64,000 nt of DNA from the NCBI RefSeq assembly GCF_009914755.1, contig NC_060930.1, one strand, 5' to 3'. Source of the stretch: the human T2T-CHM13v2.0 reference genome, Homo sapiens. Position 1 is the first letter of the stretch; every line of letters begins with the position of its first letter. The position numbers were made by a program, and so were the translations under genes. Positions 10,992 through 64,000 of this stretch are shown here, piece by piece. Under the pieces are notes generated by a model that saw only the letters and a list, made by a program, of their open reading frames with translations, did no database searches and had not been told where the DNA came from.

Positions 10992-11271
<280 letters not shown>

Positions 11272-11368
11272 TTACATTTTATGTCTAAAAGTTCTGTTTA
11301 ATTCTTGTTAAAAATTTCCAGGTCATTCTGAATAGTTTTTATTGCTTGCTTATTATTGTAATTCCATC

Positions 11369-13590
11369 TTTTATTATCTTTTTCATTAACTTTTATTTTA
11401 GGTTCAGGGTACATGTGCAGGTTTCTTATGTAGGTAAACTCATGTCACAGGGATTTGTTGTACAGTTATTTCATCACCCAAATATTAAGCCTAGTAACCA
11501 ACAGTTATATTTTCTCATCCTCTCCTCACACCCTCTACGTTCAGGTAGGCCCCAGTTTGTGTTGTTCTCCTCTATGTATCTATGCACTCCCATCATTTAG
11601 CTCCCCCTTATTAATGAGAATATGCGGTATTTGGTTTTCTGTTCCTGCATTAGTTTGCTAAAAATAATGGCCTCCAGTTTCATCCATGTTCCTGCAAAGG
11701 ACATTATCTTGTTCTTTTTTGTGACCATACAGTATTCCATGATGTGTATGGACCAAATTTCCTTTACGCAGTCTGTCATTAATGGGCATTGAAGTTGATT
11801 CCATGTCTTTGCTATTGTGAATATTACTGTAATGAACATACATGTGCATGTGTCTTTATGACAGAATGATTTATATTCCTTTGTGTATATACCCAGTAAT
11901 GGGATTGCTGGGTCGAATGGTAGTTTTATTGTTAGCTCTTTGAGGAATCACCACACTGCTTTCCACAATGGTTGAACTAATTTACACTCCCAACAATAGT
12001 GTATAAGTGTTCCTTTTCTTCACAACCTCACTGGCTTCTGTTACATTTTTTAACTTTTTAAGAATAGCCATTCTCACTGGTGTTAGATAGTATCTCATTG
12101 TGGTTTTGATTTGCATTTGTCTAATGAGTGATACTGAGTTTTTTTTTAAATACTTCTTGACCACATGTATGTCATCTAAGAAGTGTCTGTTCATGTCCTT
12201 TGCCCACTTTTTAATGGGGTTGTTTTTCTTGTAAATTTGTTTATGTTCCTTATAGATGCTGGATATTAGACCTTTGTTGAATGCTAGTTTGCAAAAGTGT
12301 TCTCTCATTCTGTAGGTTTTCTGCATATTAGATCTTTGTCAGATGCATAATTTACAAATATTTTCTCCCATTCTGTAGGGAGTCTGTTTACTCTGTTGAT
12401 AGTTTCTTTGCTGTGCAGAAGCTCTTAAGTTTAATTAGATTCCATTTGTCAATTTTTGCTTTTGTTCCAATAGTTTTGGCATCTTCGTCATGAAATCTAA
12501 TGGTATTGCCTAGGTTTCCAAGGTTTTTATAGTTTTGGGTTTTACTTTTCAGTCTTTAATCCATCTTGAGTTCATTTTTGTATATGGTGTAAGGAAAGGG
12601 TCCAGTTTCAATCTTTTGTAAATAGCTAGCCAGTTATCCCAGCACCATTTATTAAATAGGTAGTCCTTTCCTCATTGCTTGTTTTTGTCAGCTTTGTCAA
12701 AGATCAGACGGTTGTAGATGTGTGGCCTTATTTCTGGGCTCTACTAGGGGTCCTCTCCAGCCCCTAGTTGCTTCAGACTCTCCAAATCCCAAAGACAACA
12801 ACAGCTAAGACTGCAAAACAGGAAAGATGGTGACCGGCTCCTCCCTCTGGGAGCTCCATCACGTGGCTGGGGGGTTTGAAAGTGCTGTCAGCCAGAAAAT
12901 ACCGCTGGGGATGGCTATAGGCCTCAAGAGGGAGATTTTGCCCAGCGAAGAGAACCGGGATCGGGACCTGCAAGAGAAAGCAGTCTGGTCGCTTCTCTGC
13001 AGAGCTGCTGCTGGGAGACGGCGCCAGTCCCTAGTTGCGGCGGATTCCCTACAGCCTGACGGCAACCAAGCTAAGGCTGTGAAACAGCAATTACAGCCCA
13101 TCCCTCTCCCTGGTAGTTCCGTCCCACGGAGGCTCCGAACTACAGCCAGCTGGAAAACACCGCCAGGGTGGCTGGCGACCCAGGTCTGGAGGCCCCGCCC
13201 AGTGAAGAGAAGCGGGGTCAGGGACCCGCATAAAAAAGCGCAGTCTGGCCGCTTTTCCCACAGGGCAGCTGTACCGAAGGCACCAACAGCTAAGGCTGCG
13301 AAACAGCAAAGATGACGGCCGCTCCTCCCTTTCGGGAGCTCACCAGGGAGGTGTAATGCTGCTGGCTGGCTGGAGTTCCAAGCCAAAGGTGCCATGGAAG
13401 CCGGGCTTACAGACCATTGCTGCTCAGCTCCCTGGATTCAGCCCCTTTCCCAGGGGTACGTACGGAGGTCTAACCTCCCGCTGTGCCAGGCTTGCAGCCA
13501 CTTTTCCCGAAAACCCGGGTATATGAAGTTCCCTGGGCTCCACATGTGCCTGAGCGGTCGCTATGCCAAAACGCCATCTCCATGTAGCTC
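11369..13590 (-). mobile_element. Internally deleted L1PA13-16-like element: 3'UTR and ORF2 end (11369-12743) fused directly to a 5'UTR (12744-13590)
   Basis: 3'UTR type (ggtaaactcatgtcac...tcatcacccaaatattaagcctagt). ORF2 C-terminal peptides appear in the track at 11597-11839 and 11982-12326. Abrupt switch at about 12743 to a GC-rich 5'UTR with three related internal units (about 12801, 13067, 13287). Confidence 0.8.
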
Positions 13591-13591
13591 T

Positions 13592-13701
13592 ATTTTTTTT
13601 TTTTTTTTTGCCCAGGCTGGAGTGCAGCGGTGATCCGCCTGCTTTGGCCTCCCGAAGTGCTGGGATTCCAGGCGTGAGCCAGTGAGCCACCGCGCCCGGC
13701 C
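13592..13701 (-). mobile_element. Internally deleted Alu (about 110 bp)
   Basis: poly(T), then gcccaggctggagtgcagcgg (right arm), then tgatccgcc...cgcgcccggcc (5' part of left arm). Confidence 0.85.
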
Positions 13702-13705
13702 AACT

Positions 13706-14027
13706 GTTTTTGTTTGTTTGTTTGTTTGTTTGTTTGTTTGTTTTTGAGACGGAGTCTCGCTCTGTTGCCCAGGTTGGATTGCAGTGGCACGATCTGGGCC
13801 CACTGCAACCTCCGCCTCACGGGTTCAAGCGACTCTAGTGCCTTAGCCTCCCGAGTAGCTCGGATTACAGGTGCGGTCCACCACACCCGGCTAATTTTTG
13901 TATTTTTAGTAGAGACTGGGTTGCACCATGTAGGCCAGGCTTGTCTCGAACTCCTGACCTCAAGTGATCCGCCCACCTCGGCTTCCCAAAATGTTGGGAT
14001 TACAGGCATGAGCCACCGCGTCCGGCC
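13706..14027 (-). mobile_element. AluS SINE with (CAAA)n tail
   Basis: Full dimer in reverse; ctcctgacctcaagtgatcc is S-type; (tttg)n tail at 13706-13745. Confidence 0.95.
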
Positions 14028-17000
14028 TCCAGTTACATCTTATTGGATGTTTTTTCTGTTTTATTTTGTTGCATAGAGAGAGGAGTTTGTTTTTCCCCCC
14101 TTACTTCTTATGAGCCGTGCAATGAATTAAATATTATGGTTCATAAAGGGTCTGGATGTTTCATCATAAGAGAATCCTATATGGCCAGATGCTGAAGCCT
14201 TACTCTAGCTCTATCTCCCAAATTGCAATGTGTTAGAAATTACAGTTAAACCATAAAACACATTCAGTATCAGAACCAGATCTCTATGAAGCATAGTTCA
14301 TATCAAATGTACATTTTTATTTATTGAACTCTTGCATCAGAATTAATAATATTTTTGGTAGTAGTCTTCCTTAGGTTGCAGAAATATCAACATGCTGAGT
14401 CCCTCGGGATAGCTGTTTTTGTTCAACAGATATTAGAGTGCTTCACACATAGCAGGCACTGATAAATACTAATTGTTTGAGAAGACTAGACATAAAACAC
14501 AAAAGAATAAGGTGGCCAGACTTTATCCAAATAAATCCTTAAACCCATCAGCATGTTATTTTATATAAATATACATCATTTAGATACATTTCCTATTATA
14601 TCACCCAAGTTTCAATTCCAACTTAATTCCTTCAACCTGCCATAACTGCACTCAACCTCAAGGAATAAGAACACATAATAAAAATCTAAGGGTGGAAAAC
14701 TGGATAAAGGTTCTTAGTTTTATTTGGGCGACTTGGTACAAGTAAGGCAGAGGGACCAAAGGGGGAATTATTCCAGAAATATAGAAAAGAAGAGATGATG
14801 TAGATAGTACTTCAGTGAAAAAAAAATAAATGATTATTTTGATTCTTTGTTGTAGACAGCTGCAAGCCAAACAAGTACACTTTTTCCTATGGCAGATATG
14901 TATGGGAACCACACCAAACTTCCTTTACACATCTACAAATGGATGTACAATTTAACCTCTGGGTTGGACCGGCACCTCCACAAAGAACTAATTTTCCTTC
15001 CATTAATACTCTAGCAAACAATAGGAGTCTATAGAAACAGCCGGGTCACATTTGTTGAGAAAGGGAACAAAACATTATGTCCACATGTTAGATATAGAGT
15101 ATACTGTATATGGCACTCCATTCAATCCACTAACAAACTTTCCAGTGCAGATCCATGACTCTTTCACTTCCATAGCATTCCTATGCATAATTAGTGGTAG
15201 CTTAGGTTCTTTCTCTCTCAGTCAAAATAGAACATTAGAATACATGCAAACAAAGAGCAATGTTGTTTTAAAGATAAATGTGAATTCATTCTAATGTATT
15301 AAAAAGTAGATTATTTATGAACTTAGATTACTTACAAACTTTAATATTTTACCTATGATTTATAATAAACTACCTACAATACATATTACACCTGAATATG
15401 ACATGCCAGTGTATATGGTAGTTGAAAACCACTGCCATTTATCAACTAAATTTTGATCATCTGCAAAAAAGTGAAGATAATCTGCAATTATAAGTATCTT
15501 CTATTAAAAGAGAAAGAAATGAGTGGCTCTAGTCACTGACAAACATCAAAGCACAGCCAAATGGTATGATACTTATATTAATTAATAGACCATACAAATA
15601 AATGTGAAGAAATGCTGAGATTTCCCAGTATTTTTTGACTTGACATTTCTTCCAGAATATCACATTTTGTTGTCCCTAATTTATTGGTGCCCAAAGCACG
15701 TCTTTCTCATCTTTATTGGATGTCCCCACAGGAGAGGAGGGAGGTGGTGGGGCAGAGTGCCCAAATGCTGTTGGTGGCTACTGCCACCTGGCACAGGAGA
15801 AAACTGAGGAAGTCCTAGCGACTGTTAGTACGGCAAAAATCTCTTATGGGAATTGCTCCATTCTACAAATACAATCCCATCTGCATTGGCAACCTTACAT
15901 TGTTTCTGGATTAGTACTGGCAGAAAAACAACTCTATCATATGCTCTGCTGACATGTCAATAACAGCCTCAGGATGCAATTGGCATTGTAAATGATTATC
16001 AGCTAATGTATGCTTACATTGCTTAACTGAGTGGTTTTACTAATTTTGAAAATTTAATTACTTTTGATTACATGTAACATTAATGGTGTAAGAGCCAAAA
16101 GCATATTCACATATAATTCTATAATCTAAGTATAAAAAGAAATGAGAAGCATGACAAATTAAAAGTTCAAACACTGAAAAACAAAAATCAGATACTCAGA
16201 TATTCATCAGCTAGTTTTCTCCTTCCTCCACTACCTAGTTTTATTAAATAAATTTTGGTGATAAAGAAAGATTAGGAATAAAAGCCTACATGGTAAAATC
16301 AATAATACTAAATGTACTGAAGTGCTAAATCTTATGATCATGTGGGTGAAGCATTTATTTATTGTTTTATCCATTTGATGAAGCAAACAATAAATTGCTT
16401 AGGGAGACTGCTATGTCACTAAATTGAAGAGAGATTTATGTTTTAGAAGCTATATTTGCACTTGCATTCAAAACAAGTTTTGTAAATAGATTTCTCCAGA
16501 ATTGTTTATTCAGGTATTCAGTATTAGAGGCCATATTTTGAAACTGGCAAATAGAACAAAGGAAAGGCTGTAGGATTTCTTGAATTACATGGCCCTTTTA
16601 AACCTGAAATTGTAGCATAGATTTCCCAACAAATGTAACCTATTCTACAAGAAAAATGGTGTATGTTTTATCCCACCGAAATGATTTGCTTATTCTTTTA
16701 AACTGGTCATTGGAGGATATTCTAAGATTAACTTGAAATATAAAATTTAACAGAGCATAGAAAAATGAGAAATGGGATATACTTATTATCTGAGAAAAAA
16801 ATAGCATTATAACTTAGTATTCTTCTGTCCATAATGCCCTTAAAATTGTGATGCTTGCTTGATGTAGTCTCTGCCAGGTTAGACAATAGTATACAAATAC
16901 CCTATTCTTAAATTTTACCTTCACTTTGAAAAATAAATCCCATCTGGCCTCTTTTAAGAGCCAGCCTCTCTACTTATCCCACCCCCAAACTGTTTTCACC

Positions 17001-25902: not shown

Positions 25903-28061
25903 TTATTTTGAGCCTATGTATGTCTCTGCACATAAGATGGTTCTCCTGAATACAGCACACTGATGGGTCTTGACTATCCGATTTACCAGTCTGTGTCTTT
26001 TAATTGGGATATTTAGCCCATTTACTTTTAAGGTTAATATTGTTATGTGTGAATTTGATACTGTCATTATGATGTTAGCTGGTTATTTTGCCCGTTGATT
26101 GATGCCGTTTCTTCATAGCATCAATGGTCTTTATGATTTGGCATGTTTTTGCCATGGCTGGTACCAGTTGTTCCCTCCCATGTTTAGTGCTTCCTTCAGG
26201 AGCTCTTGTAAGGCAGGCCTGGTGGTGACAAAATCACTCAGCATTTCCTTGTCTGTAAAGGATTTTATTTCTTCTTCACTGATGAGGCTTAGTTTGGCTG
26301 GATATGAAATTCTGGGTTGAAAATTCTTTTCTTTAAAAATGTTGAATATTGGCCCCCACTCTCTTATGCCGAGAGATCCGCTGTTAGTCTGATGGGCTTC
26401 CCTTTGTGGGTAACCCGACCTTTCTCTCTGGCTGCCCTTAATAGTTTTTCCTTCATTTCAACCTTAGTGAATTTGACAATTATGTGTTTTGGGGTTGCTC
26501 TTCTCGAGGAGTATCTTTGTGGTGTTCTCTGTATTTCCTGAATTTGAATGTTGGCCTGCCTTGCTAGGTTGGGGAAGTTCTCCTGGATAATATCCCAAAG
26601 AGTGTTTTCCAACTTGGTTCCATTCTCCCCGTCACTTTCCAGTACACCAATCATAGATTTGGTCTGTTCACATAGTCCCATAATTCTTGGAGGCTTTGTT
26701 AATTTCTTTCCACTCTTTTTTCTCTAATCTTGTCTTCTAGCTTTATTTCATTAATTTGATCTTCAGTCACTGATATCTTTTCTTCCACTTGATTGAATCA
26801 GCTACTGAAGCTTGTGCATGCATCACGAAGTTCTCGTGCTGTGGTTTTCAGCTATTTATCACGTTTGTGATAAATTGACCTTGTTATTTTGAGATATGTT
26901 CCACCAATACTTAGTTTATTGAGAGTTTTTAGCATGAAGTTTCAGGTCATTTAAGGTCTTCTCTACACTCCTTATTCTAGTTAGACTTCATCTAACCTTT
27001 TTTCAAAGTTTTTAGCTTCCTTGCAATGGGTTAGAACATGCTCCTTTAGCTCGGAGAAGTTCGTTACTACTGACCTTCTGAGGCCTACTTTTGTCAACTC
27101 GTCAGACTCATTTTCCATTCAGTTTTGTTCCATTGCTGGCGAGGAGCTGCAATCCTTTGGAGGAGAAGAGCCACTCTGGTTTTTGGAAGTTTCAGCTTTT
27201 CTGCTCTGGTTTCTCCCTATCTTTGTGGTTTTATCTACCTTTGGTCTTTGAAGTTGGTGACCTACAGATGGGGTATTGGTGTGGATGTCCTTTTTGTTGA
27301 TGTTGATGCTATTACTTTCTGTTTGTTAGTTTTCCTTCTAACAGTCAGGCCCCTCAGCTGCAGGTCTGTTGGAATCTGCTGGAGGTCCACACCAGATTCT
27401 CTTCACCTGGGTATCACCAGCAGAGGCTGCAGAACAGCAAATATTGCAGAACAGCAAATATTGCTGCCTGATCCTTCCTCTGGAAGCTTCATCCCAGAGG
27501 GGCACCTGCCTGTATGAGGTGTCTGTCAGCCCCTACTGGGAGGTGTCTCCCAGTCAGGCTACGTGGGGGTCAGGGACCCACTTGAGGAGGCAATCTGTGC
27601 ATTCTCAGAGCTCGAACGCTGTGCTGGGAGAACCACTGCTCTCTTCAGAGCTGTCAGACAGGGACGTTTAAGTCTGCAGAAGTTGTCTGCTGCCCTTTAT
27701 TCAGCTATGCTCTGCCCACAGAGGTGGACTCTAGAGAGGTGGCAGGCCTTGCTGAGCTGTGGTGGGCTCTGCCCAGTTCAAGCTTCCTGGCTGATTTGTT
27801 TACCTACTCAAGCCTCAGCAATGGTGGACGCCACTCCCCACCACCAGGCTGCAGTGTCGCAGGTCGATCTCAGAGTGCTGCACTAGAAATGAGCAAGGCT
27901 CCGTGGGCATGGGACCCTCTGAACCAGGCACAGGAGGGAATCACCTGGTCTGCTGGTTGCTAAGACTCAGTTGGAAATGCAGAAATCACCCATCTTCTGC
28001 ATCAATCTCGCTGGGAGCTACAGACCAGAGCTGTTACTATTTGGCCATCTTGGAAGAAACC
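25903..28061 (-). mobile_element. L1 element B: L1PA6/7-like 5'UTR, ORF1 and about 130 nt of ORF2; 3'-truncated, inserted in A
   Basis: Perfect 14-bp TSD tgatttgcatttct (25889-25902 / 28062-28075). ORF1 peptide at 26364-26681. No poly(A). Confidence 0.9.
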
Positions 28062-31000
28062 TGATTTGCATTTCTCTAACAACCAGTGATGATAAGCATT
28101 TTTTCATATGTCTGTTGGCTGCATAAATGTCTTCTTTTGAGAAGTGTCTGTTCATATCCTTTGCCCATTTTTTGATGGGGCTGTTTGCTTTTTTCTTGTA
28201 AATTTGTTTAACTTCTTTGTACACTCTGAATATTAGTCCTTTGTCAGATGGGTAGATTGCAAAAATTTTCTCCCATTCTGTAGGTTGTCTGTTCACTCTG
28301 ATGATAGTTTCTTTTGCTGTGCAGAAGCTCTTTAGTTTAATTAGATCACATTTGTCCATTTTGGCTTTTGTTCCCATTGCTTTTGGTGTTTTAGACATGA
28401 AGTCTTTGCCCATGCCTATGTTCTGAATGATATTGCCCAGGTTTCCAGGTTTTCTTCTAGGATTTTTATGGTCCTAGGTCTTACTATTAAGTCTTTGATC
28501 CTTCTTGAGTTGATTTTTGCATAAGGTGTAAGGAAGGAATCCAGTTTCAGTTTTCTGCATATAGCTAGCCAGTTTTCCCAGCACCATTTATTAAATAGGG
28601 AATCCTTTTCCCATTTCTTGTTATTGTCAGGTTTGTCAAAGATCAGATGGTTGTAGATGTGTAGTGTTATTTCTGAGGCCTCTGTTCTGTTCCAGTGGTC
28701 TATATATCTGTTTTGGTACCAGTACCATGCTGTTTTGGTTACGGTAGCATTGTAGTACAGTTGAAGTCAGGTAGTGTGATGCCTCCAGCTTTGTTCTTTT
28801 TGCTTAGGATTGTCTTGGTGATGTGGGCTCTTTTTTGGTTCCATATGAAATTTAAAGTAGTTTATTCCAATTCTGTGAAGAAAATCAGTGGTAACTTGAT
28901 GGGGATAGCACTGAGTTTATAAATTACCTTGGGCAGTATGGCCATTTTCACAATATTGATTCTTCCTATGCATGAGCATGGAATGTTTTTCCATTTGTTT
29001 GTGTCTCCTCTTATTTCCTTGAGCAGTGGTTTGTAGTTCTCCTTGAAGAGGTCCTTCACATCCCTTGTAAGTTGGATTCCTAGGTATTTTTTTCTCTTTA
29101 TAGCAATTAATGGGAGTTCACTCATGAATTGGCTCTTTGTTTGTCTGTTATTGGTATATAGGAATGCTTCTGATTTTTGCACATTAATTTTGTATCCTGA
29201 GACTGTGTTGAAGTTGCTTATCAGCTTAAGGAGACTTGGGGCTGAGATGATAGGGTTTCCTAAATACACAATCATGTCATCTACAGAGACTTCCTCTCTT
29301 CCTATTGTAATACCTTTTATTTCTTTCTCTTGCCTGATTGCCCTGGCCAGAACTTCCAATACTATGTTGCACAGGAGTAGTGAGAGAGGGCATCCTTGTC
29401 CTGTGCTGGTTCTCAAAGGGAATGCTTCCAGATTTTGCCCATACAGTATGATGTTGGCTATACGCTTGTGATAAATAGCCCATGTTATTTTGAGATATGT
29501 TCCACCAATACTTAGTTTATTGAGAGTTTTTAGCATGAAGGGTGTTAAATTTTATCAAAGGCCTTTTCTGCATCTATTGAAATAATCATGTGGTTTTTGT
29601 CATTAGTTCTGTTTATGTGATAGTTTATGTTTATTGATTTGCATAAGTTGAACCAGCCTTGCATCCCAGGGATGAAGCTAACTTGATCATGGTGAATAAG
29701 CTTTTTGATATGCTACTGGATTCAGTTTGCCAGCATTTTATTGAAGATTTTTGCATGGATGTTCATCAGGGATATTGGCCTGAAATTTTATTTGTTGTGT
29801 CTCTGCCAGGCTTTGGAATCAGGATAACGCTGGCCTCAAAAAATGAGTTAGGGAGGAGTCCCTCTTTTTCTATTGTTTTGAATAGTTTCAGAAGGAATGG
29901 TACCAGCTCTTCTTTGTACCTCTGGTAGAATTTGGCTGTGAATCCATCTGGTCTTGGATTTTTTCTTTCTTTTTTTTTTTTTTTTGGTTGGCAGGATTTA
30001 AATTACTGCCTCAATTTCAGACCTTGTTATTGGTCTATTCAGGGATTCTACTTCTTCCTGTGGTGTATGTGTCCAGGAAGTTACCTATTTCTTCTAAATT
30101 TTCTAGTTTATTTGCGTAGAGGTATTTATAGTATTCTCTAATGGTAGTCTGTATTTCTATGGGATCAGTGGTGATATCCCCTTTATCAATTTTTATTGTG
30201 TCTATTTGATTCTTCCCTCTTTTCTTCTTTATTAGTCTGGCTAGCGGTCTGTCTATTTAGTTAATCTTTTCAAAAACCAGCTCCCTGATTCACTGATTTT
30301 TGAAAAGTTCTTCATGTCTCTGTCTCTTTCAGTTGTGCTCTGATCTTAGTTATTTCTTGTCTTCTACGAGCTTTTAAATTTGTTTGCTCTTGAGGGTGGA
30401 GCCAAGATTGCCGAAGAGGAGCAGCTCCAGTCTACAGCTCCCAGCGTGAGTGACGCAGAAGATGGGTGATTTCTGCATTTCCAACTGAGGTAGCGGGTTC
30501 ATCTCACTGGGGAGTGCCAGACAGTGGGTGCAGGACAGTGGGTGCAGTGAACTGAGCATGAGCCGAAGCAGGGCGAGGCATTGCCTCACCCAGGAAGTGC
30601 AAGGGGTCAGGGAATTCTCTTTCCTAGTCAAAGAAAGGGGTGACAGACGGCACCTGGAAAATCAGGTCACTCCCACCCTAATACTGCACTTTTCCAACAG
30701 GCTTAACAAACGGCACACCAGGAGATTACATGCCGCACCTAGCTTGGAGGGTCCTACACACACGGAGCCTCGCTCATTGCTAGCACAGCAGTCTGAGATC
30801 AAACCGCAAGGCTGCAGCGAGGCTGGGGGAGGGGCGCCCGCCATTGCCAAGGCTTGAGTAGGTAAAGAAAGTGGCAGGGAAGCTCAAACTGGGTGGAGCC
30901 CACCACAGCTCAAAGAGGCGTGCCTGCCTCTGTAGGCTCCACCTCTGGGGGCAGGGCACAGACAAACAAAAGGCAGCAGTAACCTCTGCAGACTTAAATG

Positions 31001-31419
31001 TCCCTGTCTGACAGCTTTGAAGAGAGTAGTGGTTCTCCCAGCACGCAGCTTGAGATCTGAAAACAGGCAGACTGCCTCCTCAAGTGGGTCCCTGACCCCG
31101 ATGTAGCCTAACTGGGAGGCACCCCCCAGTAGGGGCAGATTGACACCTCACACAGCCGGGTACTCCTCTGAGACAAAACTTCCAGAGGAATGATCAGGCA
31201 GCAGCATTTGTGGTTCACCAATATCCGCTGTTCTTCAGCCTCTGCTGCTGATACCCAGGCACACGGGGTCTGGAGTGGACTTCAAGCAAACTCCAACAGA
31301 CCTGCAGCTGAGGGTCCTGAATGTTAGAAGGAAAACTAACAAACAGAAAGGACATCCACACCAAAAACCCCTCTGTACGTCACCATCATCAAAGACCAAA
31401 GGTAGATAAAACCACAAAG

Positions 31420-32434
31420 ATGGGGAAAAAACAGAGCAGAAAAACCAGAAACTGTAAAAATCAGAGTGCCTCTCTTCCTCCAAAGGAATGCAGCTCCTCA
31501 CCACAACGGAACAAAGTTGGACAGAGAATGACTTTGACAAGTTGACAAAAGATGGCTTCAGAAGATCAAACAAATCTGAGCTAAAGGAAGAAGTTTGAAC
31601 CAATGGCAAAGAAGTTAAAAACCTTGAAAAAAATTAGATGAAAGGCTAACTAGAATAACCAATGCAGAGAAGTCCTTAAAGGAGCTGATGGAGCTGCAAA
31701 CCATGGCATGAGAAGTACGTGATGAATGCACAAGCCTCAGTAGCTTATGCGATCAACTGGAAGACAGGATATCAGCGATGGAAGACGAAATGAATGAAAT
31801 GAAGTGAGAAGAGAAGTTTACAGAAAAAAAGAATAAAAAGAAATGAACAAAGCCTCCAAGAAATACGGGACTATGTGAAAAGACCAAATCTACGTCTGAT
31901 TGGTGTACCTGAAAGTGACGGGGAGAATGGAACCAGTTGGAAAATACTCTGCAGGATATTATGCAGGAGAACTTCCCCAATCTAGCAAGGCAGGCCAACA
32001 TTCAAATTCAGGAAATACAGAGAATGCCACAAAGATACTCCTCAAGAAGAGCAACTCCAAGACACATAATTGTCAGATTCACCAAAGTTGAAATGAAGGA
32101 AAAAATATTAAGGGCAGCCAGAGAGAAAGGTCGGGTTACCCACAAAGGGAAGCCCATCAGACTAACAGCTGATCTCTTGGCAGACACTGTACAAGCCAGA
32201 AGAGAGTGGGGGCCAATATTCAACATTCTTCAAGAAAAGAATTTTCAACCCAGAATTTCATATCCAACCAAACTAAGCTTCAGAACTGAAGGAGAAATAA
32301 AATCCTTTACAGACAAACAAATGCTGAGAGATTTTGTCACCACCAGGCCTGCCCTAAAAGAGCTCCTGAAGGAAGCACTAAACATGGAAAGGAACAACCA
32401 GTACCAGTCACTGCAAAAACATGCCAAATTGTAA
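31420..32434 (+). pseudogene. L1 ORF1p (element C), disrupted
   Basis: ATG at 31420 (MGKKQSRK). N-terminal half broken by frameshifts and stops; C-terminal 165 aa open (31937-32434, ARREWG, YPTKLSF). Confidence 0.92.

Positions 32435-59617: not shown

Positions 59618-64000
<4,383 letters not shown>

What the first reader, a model, noticed from the sequence alone, without database searches (positions are those of the whole stretch)
12744..14027. Old L1 5'UTR plus adjacent Alus resist CpG decay: candidate exapted promoter
Seen: about 36 CpGs in 12830-13575 and about 23 in the two Alus. The same L1's 3' part (11369-12743) and the old Alus at 10992, 46725 and 55519 are CpG-poor, and the AluS here has many non-CpG substitutions yet keeps about 16 CpGs. 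On the + strand (antisense to the L1) there is a GC box (13191-13200), a TATA-like cataaaaa about 30 bp later, a possible donor ggg|gtacgt (about 13455) and pyrimidine-rich acceptors downstream (14076, 14854). Known: germline methylation erodes CpGs in old repeats. Inference: long-term germline hypomethylation, i.e. an active TE-derived promoter or enhancer. This is the most likely functional element in the window.
Basis: inference. Interest (0 to 1): 0.7.

Follow-up and report, generated by a model that had tools for sequence, protein, structure and literature searches.

The report
Old LINE-1 fragment escaping germline methylation
A 1.1-kb patch of old jumping-gene debris on human chromosome 6 has kept about six times more of its mutation-prone CpG sites than sister copies, likely because it has long been under-methylated in germ cells, but nothing tested here shows that it works as a promoter.

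Summary
The 5'UTR remnant of an old primate L1 (12744-13589, minus strand) has 36 CpGs (O/E 0.50), against 0-22 (O/E 0.00-0.34, median 0.11) in 65 paralogues. It keeps 15 of 54 ancestral CpG sites versus 69 of 1471 (p=6e-8) and carries 12 new CpGs versus 0-6. The adjoining AluS keeps 11 of 19 versus 63 of 272. Non-CpG divergence is ordinary (12%), so the copy is neither young nor visibly constrained. Protection is partial: CpG decay ran at about 30% of the normal rate in both insertions. The L1 has lost its 5'-most ~337 bases (start site, YY1 core) and nearly all coding sequence; but a paralogue cut at the same place is CpG-poor, so that loss alone is not the cause. The promoter clues are weak: the TATA-like word and the donor occur in 7 and 12 of 25 decayed paralogues; only the GC box is peculiar to this copy. 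Best reading: a repeat-derived, long-lived germline low-methylation patch, probably neutral, with at most mild GC-biased gene conversion. No methylome, CAGE or chromatin data could be reached. Known kind; promoter claim unproven.

The parts
11369..12743 (-). 3' end of an old primate L1 (end of ORF2, 3'UTR, poly-A); CpG-poor; holds a 63-base tandem duplication at 12259-12379. Subfamily about L1PA13-16 (name recalled, not tested)
   Evidence: 75-82% matches to many genomic copies; 2 of 15 ancestral CpGs kept, no W-to-S excess; tandem repeat
12735..12752 (-). Junction of the internal deletion that joins the 5'UTR to the end of ORF2; short imperfect homology, no GT donor
   Evidence: Alignment to paralogues on both sides; none of 39 other scored hits spans the junction
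12744..13589 (-). 5'UTR remnant of the same L1: about three GC-rich tandem units plus unique part; 36 CpGs; lacks the 5'-most ~337 bases (start site and YY1 core)
   Evidence: 29 of 29 first paralogous loci hold at least 284 of the 337 bases
12900..14024 (.). CpG-protected patch spanning three separate insertions
   Evidence: 15 of 46 ancestral sites kept in 12900-13570 against 61 of 1276; CpG positions; 13010-14030 has GC 58%, O/E 0.61
12860..12865 (.). E-box word CACGTG, made with a 5-base insertion relative to most paralogues; lies at the left edge, outside the protected core
   Evidence: some E-box word occurs somewhere in 9 of 65 paralogues
13191..13200 (-). Sp/KLF-type GC box: a kept ancestral CpG (13196) plus one T-to-C change
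   Evidence: only in this copy among 26 aligned; 1 of 65 paralogues has such a word anywhere; motif recalled
13229..13237 (+). CATAAAAAA, a by-product of CpG decay at an ancestral site; not a consensus TATA box
   Evidence: CA at ancestral CpG 13229; 7 of 25 paralogues share it; no TATAWAW in the region
13453..13461 (+). Donor-like GGG|GTACGT, a family feature
   Evidence: 12 of 25 paralogues
13590..13702 (-). Internally deleted Alu (about 73 bases of the left arm joined to the 3' end and tail); 7 CpGs
13703..14027 (-). Full AluS (Sx/Sz-like, name recalled) with (TTTG)n tail; 16 CpGs; no W-to-S excess (3 against 10)
14031..14043 (+). Possible decayed right target-site duplication of the L1 (left copy about 11360-11372); weak, 9 of 11 bases
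   Evidence: other equally good low-complexity matches exist

Best explanation
This is the CpG-rich 5'UTR remnant of an old, truncated and internally deleted L1 plus two Alus, whose CpGs decayed at about a third of the rate of sister copies, likely because the patch has been only partly methylated in the germline for tens of millions of years, and it likely evolves neutrally rather than as a selected promoter. Shown: the family was born CpG-island-like (60 ancestral sites in 860 columns); sister copies lost 95% of them, this one 72%; new CpGs also persist here; the effect covers about 1.1 kb and three insertions. Inferred: methyl-cytosine deamination in germ cells is the eroding force, so low germline (most likely sperm-lineage) methylation is the protection. 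The same residual rate in the older L1 (0.31, CI 0.17-0.50) and the younger Alu (0.30, CI 0.05-0.72) suggests a steady partial state (intermediate, cell-stage-limited or one-sex methylation), not one late switch. Speculative: the copy lost the start site and coding body through which L1s are found and silenced, and gained a GC box, so CpG-island-type factors would keep it open; loss of the 5' end alone does not suffice.
For: Retention 15/54 vs 69/1471; gains 12 vs 0-6; O/E 0.50 vs 0.00-0.34 in 65 copies; AluS 11/19 vs 63/272; ordinary non-CpG divergence 12.3% vs 11.3%; hazard ratios and rejection of full protection (p=6e-11 for the L1, 0.003 for the Alu); a younger L1 5'UTR in the same window has O/E 0.28. 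Literature: sperm methylation, not somatic, tracks CpG O/E (PMC13308097, section 6 read); older sperm hypomethylated regions have higher O/E and non-promoter ones are poorly conserved (PMC5793779, section 8 and passages); an L1's methylation state spreads up to 300 bases into flanks (PMC10879037, passages).
Against: No methylome of this locus was seen; the inference is from sequence alone and reports past, not present, methylation. The locus is not in the oocyte-methylated/sperm-unmethylated table of PMC5106035 (no row between hg19 chr6:78.74 and 81.57 Mb), which weakens the one-sex version. A mild W-to-S excess outside CpG contexts (15/109 vs 211/2718, p=0.03) is not explained by hypomethylation alone. 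A paralogue truncated at the same place has O/E 0.11 (L095), against the 5'-loss mechanism. Paralogues were picked by similarity to this copy, so they lean to low divergence and few indels.
Confidence: 0.62

Rival explanations
1. An exapted, selected promoter or enhancer: factors bound at the GC box and E-box drive a germline or embryonic transcript, antisense to the L1, or act at a distance; hypomethylation follows from that activity.
For: Protection is local and long-lived; GC box unique to this copy, E-box; 13010-14030 meets loose CpG-island criteria; many small deletions could reflect open or transcribed chromatin; over 30% of lineage-specific sperm hypomethylated regions overlap somatic ones (PMC5793779 passage).
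Against: No constraint (11.5% non-CpG divergence, range 7-16.5% in paralogues; longest clean run 55 against 26-96); TATA-like and donor words are family features; the L1's own start is deleted; no RefSeq transcript within 77 kb upstream or 100 kb downstream (hub note); nearest coding gene found starts about 238 kb downstream.
Confidence: 0.17
2. An ancient recombination hotspot: GC-biased gene conversion fixed G/C alleles, both rescuing and creating CpGs, with normal methylation.
For: W-to-S rate doubled in the 5'UTR overall (32/280 vs 427/7275, p=5e-4), still raised outside CpG contexts (p=0.015-0.03); 10 of 12 gained CpGs are W-to-S; most small deletions. Hotspots without PRDM9 sit in hypomethylated regions (PMC11161765 passages), so both may act together.
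Against: S-to-W rate is not lowered (26/251 vs 759/7038, p=0.9); no W-to-S excess in the AluS, which is protected (3 vs 10), nor in the adjoining L1 3' part (17/335 vs 478/9641); two paralogues reach similar ratios without keeping CpGs (0.63-0.67 vs 0.71); no PRDM9-type 13-mer (motif recalled).
Confidence: 0.12
3. An age or lineage artefact: the copy comes from a younger or CpG-richer source element, or was overwritten by one.
For: Best paralogue identity is only 76%; only 40 of 581 candidates were scored; some 'gained' CpGs could come from a different source element.
Against: Non-CpG divergence is as high as in paralogues; no paralogue shares more than 12 of its 85 derived states; retention at shared ancestral sites and in the independent AluS cannot come from the L1's source.
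Confidence: 0.04
4. Loss of the 5' end (YY1 site, start site) by itself let the copy escape methylation, as reported for young L1s lacking the YY1 motif.
For: This copy lacks the 5'-most ~337 bases while almost all paralogues have them; young L1s without the motif are 11-21 points less methylated (PMC10879037 passage).
Against: L095 is cut at the same place and has O/E 0.11; four more copies whose match stops 80 or more bases short have 0.03-0.18; L092 keeps most of its 5' part and has 0.34.
Confidence: 0.05

Closest known systems
Non-promoter, lineage-specific sperm hypomethylated regions (Qu et al. 2018, PMC5793779; section 8 and passages read)
   Same: About 1 kb, far from genes, intermediate CpG O/E, ordinary or raised substitution rate, primate-specific sequence
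   Different: Methylation not measured here; that study worked on sequence orthologous across seven mammals, which a primate L1 is not
TE-derived orphan CpG islands (You et al. 2025, PMC12582260; parts 1-2 of 6 read)
   Same: L1 5'UTR sequence meeting loose island criteria without an annotated start site
   Different: There the LINE-derived islands are mostly young subfamilies that have not yet decayed; this one is old (12% non-CpG divergence), half decayed, and is gaining CpGs; O/E is borderline (0.56-0.64)
YY1-site-truncated L1s that evade methylation (as discussed in PMC10879037, passages read; the original 2019 study not seen)
   Same: 5' end with YY1 core missing; signs of low methylation
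   Different: Those are young L1HS/L1PA2 with small truncations measured in cell lines; here a same-site truncated paralogue shows no protection
L1 antisense promoter and L1-derived chimeric transcripts (recalled)
   Same: Candidate transcription direction is antisense to the L1, out of the 5'UTR into the flank, with a donor-like word
   Different: Described for young L1PA 5'UTRs of another type; no transcript evidence here
Spliced integrated retrotransposed elements, SpIREs (PMC5860796, passages read)
   Same: L1 with a large internal loss starting in the 5'UTR
   Different: No GT donor at the junction; SpIRE97/622 was found only in L1PA1-6; this junction was seen in no other scored copy

Membership tests
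Germline hypomethylated region | Low CpG methylation measured in sperm or other germ cells | not testable with these tools
   No methylome reachable; two supplements too large to read
Germline hypomethylated region | Reduced CpG decay relative to age-matched copies | tested here: met
CpG island (Gardiner-Garden and Frommer: 200+ bases, GC over 50%, O/E 0.6 or more) | Length, GC and O/E thresholds | tested here: met
   Marginally: 13000-13340 O/E 0.62, 13010-14030 O/E 0.61; 12900-13580 is 0.56
Exapted TE promoter or enhancer | Transcription start or enhancer chromatin at the element | not testable with these tools
   No CAGE, ATAC or ChIP data; RefSeq shows none (hub note)
Exapted TE promoter or enhancer | Sequence constraint relative to neutral copies | tested here: not met
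   Divergence 11.5% within the 7-16.5% range, 9 small deletions against 0-7; paralogue-based, not orthologue-based
Exapted TE promoter or enhancer | Core-promoter and splice signals peculiar to the copy | tested here: inconclusive
   GC box unique; TATA-like and donor words shared by 7 and 12 of 25 paralogues
GC-biased gene conversion hotspot | W-to-S up and S-to-W down at non-CpG sites over 1-2 kb | tested here: inconclusive
   W-to-S mildly up in the 5'UTR only; S-to-W unchanged; nothing in the Alu or the L1 3' part
Maternal germline DMR persisting in embryos | Oocyte-high, sperm-low, blastocyst-intermediate methylation | tested here: not met
   Not listed in PMC5106035 supplement 11; absence may reflect coverage or thresholds
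SpIRE | GT-AG splice junction | tested here: not met
   5'UTR side has no GT; short imperfect homology instead
L1PA15/16-L1PB subfamily assignment | Diagnostic 3'UTR and 5'UTR consensus match | not testable with these tools
   No repeat library on hand; name recalled

The most novel reading that the evidence does not exclude
A CpG island being born from dead transposon DNA: an old L1 that lost its start site and coding body slipped out of germline silencing, gained a GC box and an E-box, now keeps and creates CpGs, draws mild GC-biased gene conversion, protects two later Alus, and serves as an unannotated primate germline or embryonic promoter/enhancer in a gene desert upstream of IRAK1BP1/PHIP.
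Probability: 0.15. Interest if true: 0.5.

Novelty: new member of a known kind. Interest (0 to 1): 0.27.

Why it matters
As it stands it is a clean single-locus fossil record of germline methylation: three insertions of different age in 1.1 kb report the same partial protection, and 1 of 66 copies examined shows it this strongly. The paralogue test used here could be run genome-wide to list old repeats that escaped germline silencing, the raw material for new CpG islands. If a transcript or enhancer were shown, it would be a dated example of an orphan CpG island arising from an old L1. Without that it is an ordinary member of the many non-promoter low-methylation regions.

Tried and rejected
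Young age or conversion by a younger copy: rejected. Spliced L1 origin of the internal deletion: rejected, no GT donor and no second copy among 39 scored of 3679 candidates. Loss of the 5' end as sufficient cause: rejected by L095 and four partly truncated copies. Gene conversion bias as main cause: not supported outside the 5'UTR; part of the first W-to-S signal came from two unit types in 12750-12900 and the test was redone on 12900-13570. TATA, donor and acceptors as evidence: rejected. Scan of 16 recalled factor motifs: only GC box, E-box, two CRE half-sites, one E2F6-like word and one YY1 core; no CTCF, NRF1 or PRDM9 word. Looking for the locus in print: searches with chr6 plus approximate hg38/hg19 number stems, IRAK1BP1/6q14/methylation and L1PA15/16 with sperm or methylation gave listings with no evident report of it; only listings were seen. 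The lift-over (about hg38 78.63 Mb, hg19 79.34 Mb) rests on recalled IRAK1BP1 coordinates and the start codon found. Supplements that could bear on the claim but were not seen: CoRSIV tables of PMC6545702 (too large), tables of PMC13308097, file 3 of PMC6040841 (the other files had no match), files 13-15 of PMC5106035. One recalled paper on primate sperm methylomes was not held. A regional Alu control from the 100-kb flanks was not obtained, so the Alu control is 8 window Alus plus 30 from other loci.

Full report
Anatomy. The finding covers three nested minus-strand insertions. An old primate L1 has its 3' end at 11369-12743 and, directly joined to it, a 5'UTR remnant at 12744-13589 made of about three GC-rich tandem units. 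The join removes ORF1 and most of ORF2; the two sides share a short imperfect homology, the 5'UTR side offers no GT donor, and none of 39 other scored hits crosses it, so it is a one-off deletion rather than a spliced L1 of the kind in PMC5860796 (passages). The remnant stops about 337 bases short of the family's 5' end, so the L1's start site and terminal YY1 core are gone; 29 of 29 first paralogous loci hold at least 284 of those bases and the piece is nowhere else in the window. An internally deleted Alu (13590-13702) and a full AluS (13703-14027) follow. Subfamily names (about L1PA15/16-L1PB; AluSx/Sz) are recalled, not tested.

The observation. All counts are as stated. Searching the genome with the remnant gave 29 paralogous loci (40 of 581 candidates scored) with 0-12 CpGs over the matched span against 36 here. 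In an alignment of 25 of them, 60 columns behave as ancestral CpG sites (mixed TG and CA). This copy keeps 15 of the 54 it covers; the others keep 69 of 1471 (p=6e-8). It also has 12 CpGs at columns that were not CpG, against 0-6. With 38 more loci, O/E over the homologous 850 bases runs 0.00-0.34, median 0.11, in 65 copies, against 0.50. The AluS keeps 11 of 19 scored sites at 7.5% non-CpG divergence; 15 Alus at 4.7-10.6% keep 63 of 272 (p=0.002). Protection begins near 12900 (0 of 7 kept to the left) and ends with the Alu at 14024. The L1's 3' part is ordinary (2 of 15 against 34 of 429).

Not youth, not constraint. Non-CpG divergence from the column majority is 12.3% against 11.3%, no paralogue shares more than 12 of 85 derived states, and the cleanest stretches are no cleaner than in paralogues. 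The copy has nine small deletions of 1-16 bases against 0-7; paralogues were chosen by similarity, which inflates this contrast.

Partial protection. An unmethylated CpG should survive at about 0.78 (L1) or 0.86 (Alu) given background divergence; observed 0.33 and 0.58 are well below (p=6e-11 and 0.003). Relative to controls the CpG-specific hazard is 0.31 (0.17-0.50) in the L1 core and 0.30 (0.05-0.72) in the Alu. Equal values in insertions of different age fit a steady partial state better than one late switch, although the Alu may simply be the shore of the patch. A sperm-low, oocyte-high state would give about this figure (inference from recalled male mutation bias), but the locus is absent from the published table of such regions that persist in embryos: no row lies between hg19 chr6:78.74 and 81.57 Mb (PMC5106035 supplement 11).

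Gene conversion. W-to-S substitutions are doubled in the 5'UTR. Ten of them create CpGs, which hypomethylation alone preserves. Outside CpG contexts, and outside the left unit where two unit types confuse the majority, the excess is 15 of 109 against 211 of 2718 (p=0.03), with S-to-W unchanged; the Alu (3 against 10) and the L1 3' part show none. At most a mild, local contribution, which would be compatible with recombination in hypomethylated DNA (PMC11161765 passages).

Promoter clues. The GC box combines a kept ancestral CpG with one T-to-C change and is unique to this copy among 26; the CATAAAAA is a CG-to-CA decay product shared by 7 of 25 dead paralogues; the donor word is in 12 of 25. 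No TATAWAW, CTCF, NRF1 or PRDM9 word is present; an E-box lies at 12860, outside the protected core (motifs recalled). Polypyrimidine-AG words are common (21 strict matches on the + strand of the window). RefSeq has nothing here (hub note) and IRAK1BP1 starts about 238 kb downstream. None of this excludes a weak germline transcript, but none shows one.

Why this copy? [quoted passage not shown] Yet L095, cut at the same place, has O/E 0.11, and four copies stopping 80 or more bases short have 0.03-0.18. So truncation is at best permissive; the gained GC box or the chromosomal setting would have to supply the rest. L092, near the chr14 centromere, has 0.34 with most of its 5' part, which points to position effects (PMC13308097 abstract).

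Comparison and verdict. CpG O/E is known to track sperm methylation and the age of hypomethylation (PMC13308097 section 6; PMC5793779 section 8), and LINE-derived orphan islands are known though mostly young (PMC12582260 parts 1-2). This locus works like a non-promoter germline hypomethylated region; membership needs a methylome, which could not be reached. My searches (listings only) showed no report of the locus, and several supplements were unreadable. New member of a known kind; interest 0.27.

Noticed in passing
L092 (G000:C14:15365400-15366800): A paralogous 5'UTR with intermediate CpG retention (22 in 850 bases, O/E 0.34) that keeps most of its 5' part; it lies near the chr14 short arm/centromere, where sperm hypomethylation domains are reported (PMC13308097 abstract).
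   Followed up: partly
L095 (G000:C2:154236700-154238100) and window 13589: Two copies end within about 10 bases of the same 5'UTR position; may be a recurrent truncation point or chance.
   Followed up: no
window 30395-31500: 5'UTR of a younger L1PA on the + strand with O/E 0.28, lower than the older element studied here.
   Followed up: partly
window 13590-13702: The short Alu joins left-arm and right-end sequence at a short homology; if it came from recombination between two Alus it could have removed the L1's 5' end.
   Followed up: no
L015 (G000:C12:20014249-20015011): The paralogue with the most CpGs in the first set (12) also has the second most small deletions (7), echoing this copy (36 CpGs, 9 deletions).
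   Followed up: no
window 12259-12379, 27428-27464, 60407-60460: Small tandem duplications inside L1 sequence (63-base and 17-base units).
   Followed up: no
L013 and L014 (G000:C1:108.34 and 108.42 Mb): Identical inverted pair, a segmental duplication; counted once.
   Followed up: yes
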